The translations under genes were made by a program, and so were the position numbers. Under the pieces are notes generated by a model. It did no database searches. It was not told the origin of the DNA and saw nothing but the letters and a program-made list of their open reading frames with translations. A stretch of DNA of 64,000 bases from Acidobacteriota bacterium (GTDB lineage: Bacteria > Acidobacteriota > UBA890 > WLXD01). Location of the stretch: assembly GCA_965205505.1 (NCBI GenBank), contig CBDBHB010000008.1, positions 1,248,001-1,312,000 of the forward strand. Direction: 5' to 3'. Every line of letters starts with the position of its first letter. Position 1 is the stretch's first letter. Of this stretch, positions 2,528-8,600 are shown piece by piece.

Positions 2528-2662
2528 TCAGTCGTCGCGCACCCAATCGAAACTCGTACAGCATGCGACACAGTAGTACTGCGCCACCATCATGTGGCAA
2601 CCGTAGATCGAGACCGGCTCGGTATCCGCGCTGCCGCAAAAGACACATGCCACCGTCGGCAT
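2528..2662 (-). CDS. Small PaaD-like zinc-ribbon protein
   Basis: MPTVACVFCGSADTE...YGC...QYYCVACCTSFDWVR resembles the C-terminal CxxC...CxxC ribbon of PaaD; adjacent to a PaaA-like gene. Confidence 0.6.
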   Translation of the reverse strand: MPTVACVFCGSADTEPVSIYGCHMMVAQYYCVACCTSFDWVRDD

Positions 2663-2745
2663 GGCGGCGCGCGGAACTACCGGCTGGCGGCGGCGTCCGC
2701 TCCTGTTCGGCAACCCGATCAACCTGCCGCTGCGGCCTGCGCCCA

Positions 2746-3267
2746 TTAGTCGGCGATGCCCACTGAACGCGCGTGAGCTCCAGTGATCCTGGCGAAAGAC
2801 TCCGGGTCGAAGGCCGGGACCCCGACGCGCCGGGTGCTCTGATTCCAGCTACTCCAGTCGACCTGGCAATCGACCACCCAGGCGCCGTTCTTGGCAACAC
2901 AAACCTCTACCCACGAATCGAGCGGCACGTCGAGGGCGTACGGGTAACGGAATTCGTGCGGCCGACGCTCGTACATCAGCCAGTCGCGATCGACGCCCAG
3001 CTCCTCGAGCACCCGGTAGGCGATGTGCGCGTGGGCGAGCTCATCCTGGATGATCGCCATCGCCGAGATCATGCTGTTGACCGACGGCGCCTTGCGAGCC
3101 GCGTAGTAGTAGGCGGGCGCGCTCAGCAGCTCTGTATCGCCCGACACGGTGACAATGTGGCGCAGCTCGCGCTGGTACTCCTCGGTCATCTCACTGACCG
3201 ACTCGATCAGGCCGCCTTCCTGAACCGTCTGTCGAAGAAGCGCATCGGCGCGCGTGCTCAAAGACAT
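2746..3267 (-). pseudogene. Ring-CoA epoxidase (PaaA/PaaC-like, ferritin-like di-iron) fragment, apparently internally deleted
   Basis: GDTE and QDELAHAH (first ExxH ligand set) present; second ExxH absent; only 173 aa. Confidence 0.6.
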
Positions 3268-3313: not shown

Positions 3314-3591
3314 CTAGTGGCCTGTAACAGATGATCGTTGCATATCGCAGATGGGATTTACGGGTGAGATCAAGGCGCGGCGAGGAAGGCGATGCAATGG
3401 GCATCGTCGACGAGGCGCAACGCCGATATCGCCCGCAACTGCCCATCTGTCCGCAGGATGGCGGCGAAATCGGCCCGTCTGCGGCGTTGCTCCTCCTCCA
3501 AGATGGGCAAACATCGTCTCGTCGTCGCGCCTGGCATCCGGACCCATTTCGCCACCACGATATGCAACGATCATCTGTTACAAGCCCCTAG
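3314..3591. repeat. MITE-like element, family A
   Basis: Terminal inverted repeats ctagtggcctgtaacagatgatcgttgcatatcg / cgatatgcaacgatcatctgttacaagcccctag; related copies at 18762, 36672, 62065. Confidence 0.88.
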
Positions 3592-3686: not shown

Positions 3687-3905
3687 TCAGCGAGCCGCCT
3701 TGTGACGCGTTGGCGACGGTCCCGTTGCTCCCTGACGCAGACGCTCTTCGAGCCGCATCCCGCACGTTTCGCAGACGAGGCAATGCGCCAGAATAGCCAC
3801 TGCGTGGCCACTGGCCAACGTCCCGCGCACGTAGTGTCGGAGCTCGATCTCGGCCGGGTGTATTTCGCTCCTGGCAGTGCCGGGGCTGCCTCGGGTGCTC
3901 GTCAA
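3687..3905 (-). CDS. Stand-alone zf-HC2 (ZAS-like) microprotein 2
   Basis: HPAEIELRHYVRGTL...HCLVCETC (H...HxxxCxxC); TTGA overlap with upstream ORF. Confidence 0.7.
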   Translation of the reverse strand: MTSTRGSPGTARSEIHPAEIELRHYVRGTLASGHAVAILAHCLVCETCGMRLEERLRQGATGPSPTRHKAAR

Positions 3906-4126
3906 TGCGTCGCTCTTGAAATTGCGTACGCCTCACCAAGACCAAGACGGACGCTAGACCCGCCCTGGCCAGCGGCCGCTCGCAACCACAAGAGCCCACG
4001 AGCCTGATTGCCGCAGGTGTCGCAAACGAGGCAGTGGCAATGCAATCGGTGCGCTTCATCAGGGGCGAGCGCCCCGTTGACAAAGTCCACGATCTCCAAT
4101 GCATCGGGATGGATCGTGCGATTCAT
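3902..4126 (-). CDS. Stand-alone zf-HC2 (ZAS-like) microprotein 1
   Basis: HPDALEIVDFVNGAL...HCLVCDTC; colinear with the N-terminus of the 5307-6152 anti-sigma. Confidence 0.75.
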   Translation of the reverse strand: MNRTIHPDALEIVDFVNGALAPDEAHRLHCHCLVCDTCGNQARGLLWLRAAAGQGGSSVRLGLGEAYAISRATH

Positions 4127-4159
4127 TGATGATGCCCTGTCGATCCAGGAGCTCGTTCA

Positions 4160-4855
4160 CTACGCTGTCTCGGACCCGGGATCGCGTGCGAAGCCGAACG
4201 GCGACTCCGCACGCGAGTGGGTCCCCATGCGCCGTGCCCTATGGCCGGTCCAGCGCAGCGTCGGTCGTGAGCATCGCTGAGCTAGCGCCCGGGGGGTCAT
4301 CGCAGAGCGAGCCCATGTGTGCACGACGGCCTGATCGGCGATGTTCAATACACCGCTCCAAGCGGCAATGCCGCGGGTCACCGGATCGATGCCCAGGGTG
4401 CTCGGGTACCCGGACAACCCGAGGAGCGGCAGCACCGCCGGATCGACCAGCCGCACCGGCAGGTCGAGCTCGTGCATTGCGAGGAAGTCCCGCGTCTCGC
4501 GGGCCGCGCTGACCGACAGCACATAGATCTCCGGCGCTCGCGGACCGAGCTCGTCGATCCGTGCTGCCAGGCTCCGCCATTCCGACATGTTCTGCTCGCA
4601 GAACGGGCAGGTCGTGCTCAGCACGAACAGCATCAGCGGCGCCTCGCGGCCGCTTACCTGGAGCACCGCATCGACCCCGCCGAGCGTCCGGGCGGGAATG
4701 TCGACCGGCGCGGTAACCGGACCCGCGCTGCCCGACGACTCCGCATGCGTCACGTAGTTGTGCTGCACCAGCTGGCCTAGCCAGGCGGTCCCGGCAATCA
4801 GCGCCAGGATGGTGGTCACCTCAGCGATCTTGGCGAGTCGGGGCATCGACGTCAT
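4160..4855 (-). CDS. Membrane-anchored thioredoxin-fold protein (TlpA/ResA-like, CPFC)
   Basis: N-terminal TM helix, LFVLSTTCPFC active site, GYPST cis-Pro loop; starts 3 bp after the peptide stop. Confidence 0.75.
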   Translation of the reverse strand: MTSMPRLAKIAEVTTILALIAGTAWLGQLVQHNYVTHAESSGSAGPVTAPVDIPARTLGGVDAVLQVSGREAPLMLFVLSTTCPFCEQNMSEWRSLAARIDELGPRAPEIYVLSVSAARETRDFLAMHELDLPVRLVDPAVLPLLGLSGYPSTLGIDPVTRGIAAWSGVLNIADQAVVHTWARSAMTPRALAQRCSRPTLRWTGHRARRMGTHSRAESPFGFARDPGSETA

Positions 4856-4858
4856 CTC

Positions 4859-5086
4859 CTAGAGCAATGCGCAGGTGCTCGAGCCGCCGCCGCCCTCCTC
4901 ACATCTCCAAAAGCACTTGCAGCCCCATTGGTGGTACACGGCGCAATCCTCACAGTTGGCAGCGCACTCGTCGGCACATGGGCCATGCAGGGCCTCGGCT
5001 TGCGAGGCCTGAAACGACAGGCCGAACGTCAAGAGAATGGCCCAGCTAATGAGCAGGACCTTTTTCCAGTTGATCGAACGTTGTAC
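4859..5086 (-). CDS. Small secreted cysteine-rich peptide (8 Cys)
   Basis: Sec-type signal KKVLLISWAILLTFGLSFQASQAEA then LHGPCADECAANCEDCAVYHQWGCKCFWRCEEGGGGSSTCALL; strong RBS AAAGGAGG 6 nt before an in-frame GTA at 5086 (ORF track starts at TTG 5128). Confidence 0.75.
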   Translation of the reverse strand, partial: VQRSINWKKVLLISWAILLTFGLSFQASQAEALHGPCADECAANCEDCAVYHQWGCKCFWRCEEGGGGSSTCALL

Positions 5087-5130
5087 GGTGTTCCTCCTTT
5101 GCCAGGTGGCGGGTACCTGCTCAGACAAGG

Positions 5131-5147
5131 AGCAAGGCGAATGCCGA
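5131..5147 (-). promoter_or_regulatory. Putative sigma54 (-24/-12) promoter for the peptide operon
   Basis: Minus strand TCGGCATTCGCCTTGCT = GG-N10-GC with TTGC, about 30 nt upstream of the RBS; a sigma54 activator is encoded 1.8 kb away. Confidence 0.7.
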
Positions 5148-5306
5148 ACCGCGCCACGGCCGGGCAGGAGGAGACAAACCCCGACTTACAAACAACTTAC
5201 GGAAAGGTCTCGGGCCGCTGGCCGGCTCCGCCTCAACCGTGAAATAAGGGCGGGCGGCTATCCAGCGTGGCTCAGGCGCTGGCCGGCGGGCAGCCGGCCG
5301 GGGCGG

Positions 5307-6152
5307 CTAATGCAGCTCGAGTAGAAGCTGTTTGACAGCTTCCTGCAGTCGATCCGGATCGGATCCCGGATCCGGCACGATTCGGCGAAGCAACTCGCGC
5401 GCCGTGTGGTCATGGCCAGCCTGCAGGTAGAGTCGCGCTAGGTAGTAGGCGGCCGCGTGCCCGTTGGAACTATCGGTGAGCTCGAGATCGTCCAGTACCG
5501 TCACATGAGCCTCCAGCGCCTGACGTGCCGCCGGTAGGTCGCTCCCGTCGAAGAACAACGCCAAGCCGAGCAGAGGCGTTCCGAGGGGATGATAGGAGCT
5601 GGCGAACCCACCCAGGGCTCGCGCCGCGTCGCCGTACTCACCATCGGCCAGGGCACGAACGCCCGCCTGCAGGGCAGTGATCACCTCCGCAGCGCCTACG
5701 TTGACATTCGTAGCGGGATTCTCAGCGCCGACGATCATGCTGCCGAGATCGGCGACCTTCTCGATGATGCCAATGTCGGCCAGCGTAATCTCGGTGAAGA
5801 CTCGCACGCCAGTTGGCGAACCACTCGCTCCGTCCGGCGACGCGGCCACTATCGCCTCGACATCGATCGGGCCCCGCGTCGCCGGTGCAGCGCCGCGCCC
5901 CGCAACCCAGGCCGCCGCGCCGACAAGCACGATCACCGCCGCGGCGGCGGCGGCGATCGATCGACGAGCGTACCAGGGTACGGACGATCGCAGCGGAGCG
6001 GCGCCGCGTAGGAGAATGATGGCGGCCAACTGATCGCCGCAATCGCGGCAGGCGAAGCAATGTTTCCGCACTTCCTCGGCGCGCTCTTCGCTCAGACAAC
6101 CACGAACGTAGGTCACCATGTCCAGCGGATCCGCGTGCACAACCAACGTCAT
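5307..6152 (-). CDS. Membrane-spanning zinc-binding anti-sigma factor (zf-HC2 + TM + TPR-like extracytoplasmic region)
   Basis: H...HCFACRDC motif, hydrophobic segment IAAAAAAVIVLVGAAAWVAG, TPR-like AAYYLARLYLQAG; ATGA overlap with ECF gene. Confidence 0.8.
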   Translation of the reverse strand: MTLVVHADPLDMVTYVRGCLSEERAEEVRKHCFACRDCGDQLAAIILLRGAAPLRSSVPWYARRSIAAAAAAVIVLVGAAAWVAGRGAAPATRGPIDVEAIVAASPDGASGSPTGVRVFTEITLADIGIIEKVADLGSMIVGAENPATNVNVGAAEVITALQAGVRALADGEYGDAARALGGFASSYHPLGTPLLGLALFFDGSDLPAARQALEAHVTVLDDLELTDSSNGHAAAYYLARLYLQAGHDHTARELLRRIVPDPGSDPDRLQEAVKQLLLELH

Positions 6153-6709
6153 ATCTCCCAGTCCTCGCCGGATTCCGATTCCATGCGACGCCCGACCTGC
6201 AGCAATGCTGCTTGTAGCCGACTGTGCACCGTGCTGATCGGAGCTGCTTGGATCGCCGCTACCTCGCCCAGCTTCATCGGCGGGTCACGCAATACCAACA
6301 ACTCGAGCACCTCGCGGTGAACCGGCGCCAGGTCGCCTATCAGTCGCAGCGCCACCTCGACAAGATGCCGCCGGGTGCGAGATTTCTCCTCACGGAGCAA
6401 CATGCGCAATGGATCGGAGGAGATTTCCTCGCCCGGCACCGGCGGCGGTACTTCGTCGAGCGGTAGCAGCCGCCGCCGTTGCTGGAACATCTGCAGAGCC
6501 GCCGTACGAACCGCAGTAAGCACGTAGTTGTGCGCGTCTTGTTCGCTGCCGAACTTCGGCCGCGCGCGAACCGTGCGAGCTACGGCTTCCTGAACTACCT
6601 CCTCGGCGTCCGTCACATTACCCATGAGGGACAACGCGTACCCTCTCCAACGCTGAAACCGGGAGAACCACGCTTTTTCGATGTAGCCGTAGGAAGCTGG
6701 TTGAGACAC
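6149..6709 (-). CDS. ECF RNA polymerase sigma factor
   Basis: Region 2 DAEEVVQEA and region 4 EVAAIQAAPISTVHSRL; likely GTG start at 6709 after AGGAGG. Confidence 0.85.
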   Translation of the reverse strand: MSQPASYGYIEKAWFSRFQRWRGYALSLMGNVTDAEEVVQEAVARTVRARPKFGSEQDAHNYVLTAVRTAALQMFQQRRRLLPLDEVPPPVPGEEISSDPLRMLLREEKSRTRRHLVEVALRLIGDLAPVHREVLELLVLRDPPMKLGEVAAIQAAPISTVHSRLQAALLQVGRRMESESGEDWEI

Positions 6710-6924
6710 AGGCTTGCAATCCTCCTGGCACTCGCCGGCACCGGCAAGGTGACCATCCTGGTATGGCAGTCGCAACGGCGTCAATGGGTGAGTCGGAAAA
6801 CCGCGGACGCTCGAGGGCCGTTGCAAAAAACTTCCACAACTACGGGACCCGACAGCGGTACACCTGGTGATTCGACGGGCTCCGCCAGGTACGATCCGTA
6901 CGGGGGCAGAACTTCGGACGGCTA

Positions 6925-7932
6925 GTGCGACGTACCACAGGTCACCCTCGGCCGGCTCGGCGCAGCGACATTCGCTTGCTCGGTGGCAGCGATACGATGT
7001 GTCAGGTCCGCGATCAAATCGAGGTCGCTGCCCGATATACGGAGCCGGCGCTCGTGCTTGGTGAGACGGGCGTTGGCAAGGAGCTGGTGGCGCGGCAAAT
7101 TCACAGTCACAGCTCGAGATCGCGTGCCCAGCTCGAGATCGTGAATTGCGCCGGGCTAAGCCCGGATTTACTCGCCTCTGAGCTGTTCGGTCACCGCCGG
7201 GGCGCCTTCACCGGCGCGGATCACGACCGCGCCGGCCGCATCAGGGCCGCCGATGGCTCGACCCTGATCCTGGATGAAATCAGCGAAGCGCCCCGGTCGC
7301 TCCAGGCCACCGTGTTGCGTGCGGTGGAATACGGCGAGGTCCAGCCAGTCGGATCCGATTCCGTCTTCCAAGTCGACGTACGATTCGTGGCCACCAGCAA
7401 CAAGACACTGCACGAGCTCAGCCAGGGCAGCGCTTTCCGCATCGACTTGTTGCACCGTCTCGCTGCCTTCGTCATCCGCATCCCGCCGTTGGCCGAACGA
7501 CTGGAGGACCTGGAAGAGATCGCAACCGCGTACCTCGCAACGCTCGCCGCTCAGTATGGGTGCTTACGCCACCTAAGCCCCGGACGGCTAGCACTTCTTG
7601 GCGACCAGGCCTTTCCCGGAAACGTACGCGAGCTACGCCAGATCCTTCTCCGCGCCTATGCAGCTTCGCGCGATGAGGTCATCGCCCCCGCCGCGGTCGC
7701 GGCGGCGATCTTGCCCATTGACCGGCAGCCGACCGCCGCCATGTCCGACACCACACCGACTTCGCTCGCACTCGAGCAGGTGGTACGGCGACATATCCGC
7801 CAGGCGATCGCTATGGCGGACGGCAACCTGAGCCAGGCCGCGCGCTTGCTCGAGATTCCGCGCAGCACGCTGCAGCACTACCTGATCAAGTACCGGATAC
7901 AACCGCCAGCTCGCGGACGCGCCGCCCGCTAG
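6925..7932 (+). CDS. Sigma54-dependent activator (bEBP) lacking an N-terminal sensory domain
   Basis: GETGVGKE, ELFGHRRGAFTGA, LILDEI, FPGNVREL, C-terminal Fis HTH GNLSQAARLLEIPRSTL; only about 20 aa precede the AAA+ domain. Confidence 0.92.
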   Translation: MRRTTGHPRPARRSDIRLLGGSDTMCQVRDQIEVAARYTEPALVLGETGVGKELVARQIHSHSSRSRAQLEIVNCAGLSPDLLASELFGHRRGAFTGADHDRAGRIRAADGSTLILDEISEAPRSLQATVLRAVEYGEVQPVGSDSVFQVDVRFVATSNKTLHELSQGSAFRIDLLHRLAAFVIRIPPLAERLEDLEEIATAYLATLAAQYGCLRHLSPGRLALLGDQAFPGNVRELRQILLRAYAASRDEVIAPAAVAAAILPIDRQPTAAMSDTTPTSLALEQVVRRHIRQAIAMADGNLSQAARLLEIPRSTLQHYLIKYRIQPPARGRAAR

Positions 7933-8104
7933 CAGGCCGGGTGGAAGTGCGGCGGGCCAGGGGCGTTCGCCTCGCCGGCGAAGGGATCCATCAAGAGGAT
8001 CTCGGAAAAACCGCAGCACCGAGCTTCCTCCTAGCGAGAACCGTTTCTTACACGGGTGGTCCTCTGTCGAGCGAAGCATCCAAACTGCAACGAGCGGAGC
8101 AATC

Positions 8105-8600
8105 ATGCAGGCCTCGTCAGAGGGTGTACGACCGTCGGGACGCGAGGTGGCAGAGCTTGCGCGTGCACATATAGAGTGCCACTACGCATCGGCTGTCGGA
8201 TGTGGCACCACCAGCATCGCGACGCTACTGGGAGTCTCCTCATCGCTGCTGTGTCACCGATATCGCGCTACCTACGGGGTGACGATCGGTCAGCACGTCC
8301 GTAGGCTGCGCATCGGCAAGGCGCGTAGGCGAGCTCAGCTCGCGACCCCGTCAGCTGATCAAGGAAGTCGCAGCAGACGTGGGCTACTGTCGGCAGTCAT
8401 ACCGCACATTCCTCAACGCCTTCCGGGCCGAAACCGGTATGCCACCGAGCCGTTACCAGCGCCAGGTGCTCGCCCCGATTCAGGCCACACCGATCAAGGT
8501 AAAGGTGCCGCACCGGCGCCCGGATCAAGCTCGCCGTCGCAAGTCTGATGCGCTGCCCCAGACAGGCACCGACGTCTCGGTTCAGGCAGGAACGACCTGA
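8105..8600 (+). pseudogene. AraC-family HTH-only regulator, frameshift near 8330
   Basis: IATLLGVSSSLLCHRY...YGVTIGQHVRRLRIGKAR continues in another frame as QLIKEVAADVGY..SYRTFLNAFRAETGMPPSRY. Confidence 0.75.

What the first reader, a model, noticed from the sequence alone, without database searches (positions are those of the whole stretch)
3687..8600. Candidate new peptide signalling/effector module: sigma54-driven Cys-rich peptide with thioredoxin, ZAS microproteins, ECF/anti-sigma and a sensor-less bEBP
Seen: a minus-strand run of ECF sigma, TM anti-sigma (zf-HC2), a GG-N10-GC promoter, a secreted 8-Cys peptide, a CPFC thioredoxin and two zf-HC2-only ORFs, divergent from a GAFTGA bEBP with no sensor domain and an AraC HTH. 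Known: bEBPs activate -24/-12 promoters, ZAS domains bind ECF sigmas, and TlpA-like proteins handle extracytoplasmic disulfides. Inferred: a self-contained circuit in which the bEBP drives the peptide, the thioredoxin matures it, and the anti-sigma TPR-like region may sense it, with feedback through the microproteins. I do not recognise this architecture as a described system.
Basis: partly seen in the sequence, partly recalled or inferred. Interest (0 to 1): 0.85.

Follow-up and report, generated by a model that had tools for sequence, protein, structure and literature searches.

The report
ECF-to-sigma54 relay driving secreted peptide
In one class of uncultured Acidobacteriota, a membrane stress sensor and its sigma factor appear to switch on, through a relay of activators, a second sigma factor system that makes an unnamed secreted cysteine-rich mini-protein plus small inhibitors that probably switch the circuit off again; the wiring is conserved but untested, and this strain's copy is damaged.

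Summary
All nine genes are real and evolve under purifying selection. Across the 26 genomes of this class (Acidobacteriota), 26 of 27 peptide loci lie downstream of the same ZAS-TM-TPR anti-sigma gene. A -24/-12 promoter precedes the peptide in 16 loci, 15 of which carry a related bEBP; none of the 11 loci without it does. A shared palindromic enhancer sits upstream.

This implies a relay: ECF -> (AraC) -> bEBP -> sigma54 -> peptide, thioredoxin and ZAS microproteins, which probably inhibit the ECF.

The acidic 8-Cys peptide is an unnamed, class-restricted family. That it binds the anti-sigma TPR is not shown. In this strain the peptide start codon is GTA and AraC is frameshifted. The scan noted analogous ECF/Cys-peptide operons on other DNA, but not this family or relay. 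Verdict: new variant of ECF/anti-sigma signalling.

The parts
3687..3905 (-). ZAS-only microprotein z2 (72 aa, HxxxCxxC); start overlaps the z1 stop
   Evidence: ChrR anti-sigma model E 1e-4; found in 9 of 10 other genomes of the family; dN/dS 0.25
3902..4126 (-). ZAS-only microprotein z1 (74 aa)
   Evidence: 37% identical over 52 aa to the anti-sigma ZAS, E 1e-11; dN/dS 0.16
4160..4846 (-). Membrane-anchored TlpA/ResA-like thioredoxin (CPFC); N-terminal anchor WLGxxxxHN; tail lengthened by a homopolymer difference at 4290 in this strain
   Evidence: CxxC kept in 11 of 11 thioredoxin rows; family profile hits ResA E 4e-10, StoA, CcmG, TlpA
4859..5086 (-). Sec-signal 8-Cys peptide (75 aa; mature part 43 aa after AEA); start codon GTA in this strain, GTG in others
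   Evidence: 53 family representatives; AlphaFold helix plus three strands, pLDDT 87
5131..5146 (-). sigma54 -24/-12 promoter CGGCATTCGCCTTGCT
   Evidence: rpoN present in the genome
5187..5199 (.). IHF-like site (weak in this strain; consensus recalled)
   Evidence: 10 type A loci: 19 mismatches vs 32.6 +/- 2.2 in shuffles, 0 of 300; not enriched in types B or A'; 4 IHF/HU genes
5245..5260 (-). Candidate bEBP enhancer, palindrome TGMCG-N6-CGKYA (degenerate here, 3 mismatches)
   Evidence: Derived on type A, recovered out of sample in type B (0 of 300 shuffles) and A' (2 of 300); runs X4 and X5 carry the consensus letter at 5248
5307..6152 (-). Anti-sigma factor: ZAS (1-52), TM (66-84), linker, about three TPR units (150-281)
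   Evidence: Pfam zf-HC2 and TPR, below cut-off; alignment; AlphaFold model and TPR matches Z 11-13
6149..6709 (-). ECF sigma factor (186 aa, GTG start behind GGAGGA); stop overlaps the anti-sigma start
   Evidence: dN/dS 0.14
6650..6682 (-). Candidate ECF-type promoter inside the 5' part of the ECF gene, facing the anti-sigma gene
   Evidence: Rank 1 of about 12 million strand positions for a matrix trained on 5 intergenic sites of the other family; present in 12 of 12 type A ECF genes with rare codons
6755..6784 (-). sigma70-like promoter of the ECF operon (TTGACG-18-CAGGAT)
   Evidence: Conserved in the alignment of type A intergenic regions; not picked by the consensus scan
6823..6895 (+). 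Conserved element GCAAAAAACTTCC plus sigma70-like promoter (GTGATT-17-TACGAT) of the bEBP gene; candidate AraC site
   Evidence: Both present in 7 of 7 loci with an AraC gene or remnant, 0 of 7 without; confounded with descent
6925..7932 (+). bEBP without regulatory domain (AAA+, GAFTGA, Fis-type HTH)
   Evidence: Sigma54_activat E 2e-52 from residue 19, HTH_8; own clade, support 99; dN/dS 0.13
8001..8033 (+). Candidate ECF-type promoter about 100 nt before the AraC gene
   Evidence: 5 of 5 AraC genes with both independently trained matrices (p <= 0.004; p 0.001-0.015)
8105..8600 (+). Small AraC-type activator (DNA-binding domain only), frameshifted near 8325-8335 in this species
   Evidence: HTH_18 pieces in two frames; intact at 140-160 aa in 4 of 4 relatives compared; same frameshift in 4 of 4 runs

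Best explanation
This is an ECF-triggered, multi-step relay whose output is a secreted disulfide-rich mini-protein and whose last step turns the trigger off.

(1) The membrane anti-sigma holds the ECF through its zinc domain. An unknown outside signal acting on its TPR part frees it, probably by RseP-type proteolysis (inferred from family knowledge).
(2) Free ECF transcribes more anti-sigma and, in this locus type, a small AraC activator; in most AraC-less loci it transcribes the bEBP gene directly (motif conservation shown, assignment to the ECF inferred).
(3) AraC activates the bEBP gene (weakest step, inferred from a 7/7 vs 0/7 correlation).
(4) The bEBP needs no sensor because its amount is controlled. 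It binds TGMCG-N6-CGKYA and opens the sigma54 promoter (co-occurrence and motifs shown, activity inferred).
(5) The operon makes the Sec-exported peptide, the periplasm-facing thioredoxin that sets its disulfides, and two soluble ZAS proteins that sequester the ECF, giving delayed negative feedback (inferred).

Most likely role of the peptide (about 0.4): a periplasmic partner of the anti-sigma TPR that feeds back on the sensor, as RseB does on RseA. In this strain the relay is probably broken at AraC and at the peptide start codon.
For: 26 of 27 peptide loci lie downstream of this anti-sigma family, in six gene orders. The sigma54 motif and a bEBP co-occur in 15 of 16 loci vs 0 of 11. The enhancer palindrome is recovered out of sample, and the module bEBPs share the HTH helix (I/V/L)PR(S/T)TL(Q/R).

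ECF-type motif: a matrix from 5 sister-family sites finds 5 of 5 AraC promoters and ranks the site inside this ECF gene first in the genome. A second matrix from 8 type B anti-sigma sites, ending in CGTTA, finds 7 of 7 type B bEBP promoters at p 0.0007 and 5 of 5 AraC promoters. The motif is absent before the peptides (0 of 30 at p<0.02). The ECF pair is the only regulator common to all locus types; autoregulated bipartite motifs are the standard ECF signature (PMC7826278, passages).

All genes have dN/dS under 0.35. rpoN, IHF/HU and RseP are present. In type C loci the peptide start overlaps the anti-sigma stop.
Against: There are no expression or biochemical data.

The window's bEBP gene has no ECF-type site (p 0.15-0.17), so the link here depends on AraC, whose site is only inferred and is confounded with descent. 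Among AraC-less loci, L021 and L141 score weakly (p 0.04 and 0.03) and L021 and L028 fail with the second matrix (p 0.25 and 0.07). The type A/C motif is partly palindromic and scores on both strands, so it could be an operator.

The loci are kin: about three lineages with and three without the sigma54 step, so counts overstate. Several contigs without a bEBP are under 5 kb. Some anti-sigma paralogues have no peptide behind them (L077, L171, ECF-anti-sigma fusions). Five of six close genomes examined carry lesions in the module.
Confidence: 0.62

Rival explanations
1. Same transcriptional relay, but the peptide is an end effector rather than a feedback ligand: an acidic cysteine-rich metal or thiol buffer in the envelope, or the partner of the beta-propeller proteins that often follow it.
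For: Mature peptides are acidic (mean charge -3.3; 47 of 66 at -2 or lower) with 8 Cys. The usual neighbours are thioredoxins, a DsbA-like protein and DUF5128/NHL propellers. Bufferins are Sec-exported Cys peptides under an ECF pair and buffer copper (PMC11626156, passages). A strong sigma54 promoter suits bulk output.
Against: No MNIO maturase found in this 96% complete genome. Residues between the cysteines vary strongly (53% identity within the genus vs 86% for the signal peptide), more like a recognition surface. The type A locus has no propeller.
Confidence: 0.33
2. The bEBP is constitutive and controlled in trans by z1/z2, as PspA controls PspF or HrpV controls HrpS; the ECF pair is a parallel arm.
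For: Known bEBPs without a regulatory domain are held by a trans inhibitor (PMC3105312, passages). z2 occurs in 9 of 10 family genomes, the same family that has the sensor-less bEBP.
Against: z1/z2 are paralogues of the sigma-binding ZAS domain including its third helix. Sensor-less bEBP loci L028 and L029 show no microprotein in the DNA fetched. ECF-type motifs precede many bEBP genes.
Confidence: 0.15
3. The peptide is a defensin-like or bacteriocin-like antagonist, the thioredoxin its maturase, and the ECF pair an immunity or danger sensor.
For: Helix plus three-stranded sheet with CxxxC and GCxC motifs; hypervariable mature part; frequent loss-of-function lesions, as expected of a costly product.
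Against: Only 2 of 66 mature peptides have a charge of +2 or more. The first Cys of GCxC is lost together with the last Cys in 5 sequences, which is not the defensin pairing as recalled. No dedicated exporter appears in the locus maps.
Confidence: 0.1
4. The genes are neighbours by descent and the locus is decaying; no working circuit exists.
For: Type A loci share one chromosomal place. Lesions occur in G000, G002, G003, G004 and G007.
Against: The same parts recur in other orders and places with a different bEBP clade. Cis-elements are conserved across families. dN/dS is 0.13-0.33. G001 appears intact.
Confidence: 0.07

Closest known systems
DdvS-DdvA of Myxococcus xanthus (PMC11506125; abstract and first part of Discussion read)
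   Same: ECF held by a single-pass anti-sigma with a zinc-bound N-terminal domain and periplasmic TPRs; RseP-type release proposed. Distant relatives of this anti-sigma elsewhere in the phylum sit beside TPR-CHAT proteins (9 of 9 large neighbours scanned).
   Different: No CHAT domain in the 281-aa protein or its locus. The output is a peptide operon reached through a bEBP, not CBASS/CRISPR.
HrpRS-HrpV-HrpL of Pseudomonas syringae and PspF-PspA (PMC3105312, passages; PMC8103513, passages)
   Same: bEBP with only AAA+ and HTH, a sigma54 promoter with enhancer and IHF, and an ECF in the same cascade.
   Different: The order is reversed: there the bEBP makes the ECF, here the ECF appears to make the bEBP. 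No PspA or HrpV relative was recognised in the locus.
Bufferins BufA1/A2 with SigF-NrsF (PMC11626156, passages)
   Same: Sec-exported Cys-rich mini-protein under an adjacent ECF/anti-sigma pair.
   Different: No MNIO enzyme found, a different peptide family, a ZAS-TM-TPR anti-sigma, and a sigma54 step.
RpoE-RseA-RseB (PMC8103513, passages)
   Same: In type C loci an exported small protein is encoded directly behind the anti-sigma in the ECF operon.
   Different: The partner is a 43-residue disulfide mini-protein, binding is untested, and in other loci it is moved under sigma54.
CsfB (Gin) feedback on sigmaG in Bacillus subtilis (PMC3174212, abstract only)
   Same: A small anti-sigma made downstream of the sigma factor it inhibits.
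   Different: Unrelated sequence and sigma class; here the inhibitors are ZAS paralogues at the end of a longer relay.

Membership tests
ECF sigma with ZAS transmembrane anti-sigma | ECF with sigma2 and sigma4 only | tested here: met
   Sigma70_r2 over cut-off, E 3e-8; ECF models cover both halves but stay under their cut-offs
ECF sigma with ZAS transmembrane anti-sigma | Adjacent anti-sigma with H...HxxxCxxC and one TM helix | tested here: met
   H6, H31, C35, C38 conserved in at least 90% of 32 rows; TM 66-84
ECF sigma with ZAS transmembrane anti-sigma | Autoregulated bipartite promoter | tested here: met
   Motif found out of sample; its use by the ECF is inferred
ECF sigma with ZAS transmembrane anti-sigma | Direct binding and signal-dependent release | not testable with these tools
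   Needs experiment
bEBP without regulatory domain (PspF/HrpRS type) | AAA+ with GAFTGA and C-terminal HTH, no N-terminal domain | tested here: met
   Domain starts at residue 19; short N-terminus in the 7 frames printed
bEBP without regulatory domain (PspF/HrpRS type) | Dedicated trans inhibitor | tested here: inconclusive
   No Pfam or NCBIfam hit to one among the 9 module ORFs; z1/z2 untested
DdvA-type anti-sigma | Periplasmic TPR-CHAT domain | tested here: not met
   TPR only; the genome's single CHAT match lies about 830 kb away
Bufferin/oxazolin RiPP | Sec-signal Cys-rich precursor near an ECF pair | tested here: met
Bufferin/oxazolin RiPP | MNIO (PF05114) maturase | tested here: not met
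   0 matches in G000, 96% complete; control rang in Caulobacter
CS-alpha-beta defensin / actifensin | Cysteine-stabilised alpha-beta fold | tested here: inconclusive
   Best Z 3.5, no Foldseek hit at E<=0.001 for a 43-residue model
CS-alpha-beta defensin / actifensin | Cationic mature peptide (feature recalled) | tested here: not met
   2 of 66 at +2 or more
TlpA/ResA thiol-disulfide oxidoreductase | N-terminal anchor, CxxC, cis-Pro loop, thioredoxin fold | tested here: met
Radical-SAM Cys-repeat RiPP (TIGR04117) | Precursor over the model cut-off | tested here: not met
   13 of 66 match weakly, best E 7e-5; the window peptide scores 17.8 bits vs cut-off 50
MarA/SoxS-like small AraC activator (names recalled) | DNA-binding domain only, about 100-160 aa | tested here: met
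   Intact relatives of 140-160 aa hit only HTH_18/HTH_AraC; broken in this species

The most novel reading that the evidence does not exclude
A peptide-sensing pulse generator or cell-to-cell signalling circuit. Each lineage has a matched pair of TPR receptor and disulfide mini-protein. The ligand is made only after a relay through three sigma classes (sigma70, ECF, sigma54) and two sensor-less activators, together with soluble ZAS inhibitors, so the response is delayed, amplified and self-terminating. The many broken upstream genes would then be cheaters.
Probability: 0.25. Interest if true: 0.87.

Novelty: new variant of a known kind. Interest (0 to 1): 0.72.

Why it matters
Known cascades put the bEBP and sigma54 upstream of the ECF; the evidence here points the other way and explains how a bEBP can do without a sensor. 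The locus gives an unnamed family of bacterial disulfide mini-proteins, a candidate ligand for the otherwise orphan TPR-type anti-sigma factors of Acidobacteriota, and a candidate job for ZAS-only microproteins. All cis-elements (ECF promoter, enhancer, -24/-12 site) are predicted to the base, so the whole circuit can be rebuilt in a laboratory strain.

Tried and rejected
Complex prediction of the anti-sigma periplasmic part (110-281) with the mature peptide gave no answer (score 0.01); it is no evidence either way.

Mirror test of peptide vs TPR distances: partial r 0.59 on 23 loci (ZAS 0.14, linker 0.44), falling to 0.33 against controls up to 0.24 on 14 less redundant loci, and to 0.21 against up to 0.29 with more covariates. 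Inconclusive.

Fold searches of the peptide model found nothing clear. Atlas look-alikes scored only 0.82-0.85, leads only. No Pfam family for the peptide.

No RNA holder was listed. The genome-contig scan used a generic ECF pattern and returned only distant ECFs. The consensus sigma70 and terminator scan found nothing above shuffles. The fixed-spacer type C matrix missed the type B bEBP promoters (0 of 7 at p<0.02) until a type B matrix with a variable spacer was used. The IHF-like site was not enriched in types B and A'.

Rejected: the 89-aa TTG start of the peptide (it lies upstream of the expected transcript start; relatives start at the 5086 position). Rejected: sequencing error as the cause of the AraC frameshift (same in 4 of 4 runs). 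Rejected: 5' AT bias as the cause of the ECF-internal site (GAA 0.33, AAA 0.15, TTT 0.14 in codons 8-20 of genes on contig C7). The one peptide hit outside the class (G040, E 4e-4) holds three stops and was discarded.

Earlier-finding look-ups by place and by sequence were empty. The supplement of PMC7826278 with ECF group descriptions was not read and may name this ECF group or its promoter.

Full report
OBSERVATION. The window holds, on the minus strand, an ECF sigma gene (6149-6709), an anti-sigma gene overlapping its stop (5307-6152), a sigma54 promoter (5131-5146), a secreted 8-Cys peptide (4859-5086), a CPFC thioredoxin (4160-4846) and two ZAS-only ORFs (3902-4126, 3687-3905). Divergent from them lie a bEBP without N-terminal domain (6925-7932) and a small AraC gene (8105-8600). 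The anti-sigma model has a three-helix zinc domain, one TM helix and a TPR domain (pLDDT 81; Z 11-13 to peptide-binding TPRs and YbgF, a level common for helical repeats). The thioredoxin family profile matches ResA, StoA, CcmG and TlpA. rpoN, four IHF/HU genes and RseP are in the genome; MNIO was not found. A family peptide identical to that of G022 (same order) is named as from an Acidobacteriota bacterium, which gives the phylum.

STATE OF THIS COPY. Run X1, probably the source, agrees with the window letter for letter. Contigs of three other studies read GTG instead of GTA at the peptide start and have a longer homopolymer at 4290; two of them carry the consensus letter of the enhancer at 5248; all four share the AraC frameshift. 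Relatives carry other lesions: a stop in the G002 ECF, an ECF frameshift and a bEBP-AraC deletion in G003, a bEBP deletion and thioredoxin frameshift in G004, and loss of the AraC 5' half in G007. G001 looks intact. Some frameshifts in these assemblies may be errors. Within the genus all genes are under purifying selection (dN/dS: ECF 0.14, bEBP 0.13, z1 0.16, z2 0.25, thioredoxin 0.25, peptide 0.29, anti-sigma 0.33; two control genes 0.14-0.16). The mature peptide (53% identity) and the TPR part (57%) diverge faster than the signal peptide (86%) and the ZAS (78%).

DISTRIBUTION. The anti-sigma matched 20 of 61 genomes: all 10 others of the family, 9 of 15 of the sister family, none of the 35 further ones with that single query. 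The peptide profile matched 16 of 26 class genomes and, among 401 phylum genomes, 12 of the class and one spurious outside hit. It finds 53 representatives among 1.84 billion proteins. None of those tested has a Pfam family and only weak TIGR04117/04118 matches exist (13 and 1 of 66). The mature part is predicted as one helix and three strands (pLDDT 87), is acidic, and loses Cys24 and Cys40 together in 5 of 66 sequences. A wider anti-sigma profile reaches 23 genomes outside the class. In 16 such loci examined no peptide of this family was seen, and the 9 large neighbours scanned are all CHAT proteins, 8 with TPR hits. The class therefore seems to have paired an old Acidobacteriota sensor type with a new partner.

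LOCUS TYPES. One search lists 27 peptide loci from genomes; 26 lie downstream of the anti-sigma gene and the 27th contig ends. Type A (this one, 8 with peptide): bEBP divergent from ECF-anti-sigma-P54-peptide-thioredoxin-ZAS, AraC in some genera. Type A' (G011): the same parts rearranged. Type B (6; a seventh): ECF-anti-sigma-P54-NHL propeller-peptide-thioredoxin, with a convergent bEBP of another clade that has an N-terminal domain. Types C, D and E (11): ECF-anti-sigma-peptide without P54, followed in C and E by a propeller, a glutamine cyclotransferase or a thioredoxin. P54 precedes the peptide in 16 loci, 15 with a bEBP; 0 of 11 without P54 have one in the DNA fetched, several on short contigs. 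z2 is in 9 of 10 other family genomes. These loci are kin, so the counts are descriptive.

SIGMA54 ARM. A palindrome read by eye from type A (TRACG-N6-CGTYA) is enriched 90-145 nt upstream of P54 in type B (7 mismatches vs 16.5 +/- 1.6; 0 of 300 shuffles) and A' (2 of 300), which were not used to derive it. An IHF-like site is enriched in type A only. The module bEBPs form two supported clades and share an HTH helix that the genome's other bEBPs lack, one coming close.

ECF ARM. A matrix built on five intergenic sites before type C operons finds a site about 100 nt before all 5 AraC genes (p <= 0.004), before the bEBP in 6 of 8 AraC-less loci at p <= 0.01 (two of them near-identical; the other two at 0.03-0.04), and before 5 type D and E ECF genes. 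It finds none at p<0.02 before 30 peptides or in the 250 nt before 13 type A ECF genes; before the bEBP of AraC-bearing loci it scores p<0.02 in 1 of 7. Its best site in the whole genome is window 6650-6682, inside the ECF gene and facing the anti-sigma. All 12 type A ECF genes listed have this site, written with GAA (8 of 8 Glu), AAA and TTT (9 of 12 Phe) against genome use of 0.19, 0.14 and 0.14, which 5' codon bias does not explain. A second matrix from the 8 of 8 type B anti-sigma upstream regions (TCG(G/T)AA ... CGTTA, not palindromic) finds 7 of 7 type B bEBP promoters at the floor p of 0.0007, the L029 bEBP, two of three genus-g3 bEBPs and 5 of 5 AraC promoters, but not the window's bEBP (p 0.17) or that of L028 (p 0.07). 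The only regulators common to all types are the ECF and its anti-sigma, so the motif is best read as the ECF promoter, the usual inference for this family (PMC7826278, passages). Where AraC exists, the bEBP gene instead has a sigma70-like promoter and a conserved upstream element (7 of 7 vs 0 of 7).

MECHANISM. Shown by computation: genes, co-occurrence, cis-elements, selection. Inferred: signal -> anti-sigma cleavage -> ECF -> more anti-sigma and AraC -> bEBP -> sigma54 -> peptide, thioredoxin, z1, z2. z1 and z2 are paralogues of the sigma-binding domain and most simply bind the ECF, closing a delayed negative loop like CsfB on sigmaG (PMC3174212, abstract). In every type the peptide is an ECF output, directly or through the relay. 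Its target is open: feedback ligand of the TPR about 0.4, metal/thiol buffer or propeller partner about 0.33, antagonist about 0.1.

COMPARISON. It works like an ECF/ZAS anti-sigma stress circuit and is a member of that kind. It is not DdvA (no CHAT; PMC11506125, abstract and part of the Discussion), not a bufferin cluster (no MNIO found; PMC11626156, passages), and it reverses the HrpRS -> sigma54 -> HrpL order (PMC3105312 and PMC8103513, passages). Eight full-text searches (listings and abstract starts only, apart from the papers named) gave no description of this peptide family or relay. Subscription journals are not covered and the ECF group supplement of PMC7826278 was not read. Earlier notes of this scan describe analogous ECF/Cys-peptide/propeller or CHAT operons in other genomes; none matched this sequence.

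VERDICT. A real, conserved and apparently undescribed wiring of known parts with a new peptide family; new variant of a known kind; interest 0.72. The strain in the window probably carries a disabled copy.

Noticed in passing
window 3314-3591: MITE-like element with 34-nt terminal inverted repeats (94% complementary); 59 blastn matches of 200 nt or more in the genome.
   Followed up: partly
window 2528-3267: The phenylacetate epoxidase (paa) operon beside the module is largely deleted here (PaaA-like 173 aa vs about 313 aa in relatives) and in G004, complete in G002, G003, G006, G007.
   Followed up: partly
window 4750-4846; L023:1913-2212, L059:6995-7294, L026:3560-3700: The gene after the peptide starts with the same membrane anchor (WLGxxxxHN) whether it carries a thioredoxin, a six-bladed propeller or a glutamine cyclotransferase domain. 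Unexplained; it may dock on the sensor.
   Followed up: partly
L017:7739-8716: In G003 a deletion fuses the bEBP AAA+ domain in frame to the second HTH of AraC.
   Followed up: no
L070:6387-7706, L071, L072, L073, L075: Five ECF-anti-sigma fusions (ECF, ZAS, TM, TPR in one chain) in the sister family, without a peptide.
   Followed up: no
L134, L135, L136, L137, L066, L067, L173, 130-170 nt upstream of the bEBP gene: Conserved TGGTGCA(C/G)TG and CGCAG(C/T)C elements upstream of all 7 type B bEBP genes; binding factor unknown. These bEBPs have an N-terminal domain of about 120 aa with no Pfam match and a long low-complexity insert before the HTH.
   Followed up: no
L063:7922-8215, L064:8100-8393: A peptide subgroup with a pro-region after the signal peptide and a ninth cysteine in a C-terminal tail (also P0045-P0048, P0050, P0052).
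   Followed up: no
L136:8156-8765: Tandem duplication of the peptide gene with identical mature sequences.
   Followed up: no
L064:10078-12853, L068:3812-4144: G011 holds several module copies and further unrelated Cys-rich secreted peptides beside thioredoxin and propeller genes, one behind another sigma54-like motif.
   Followed up: no
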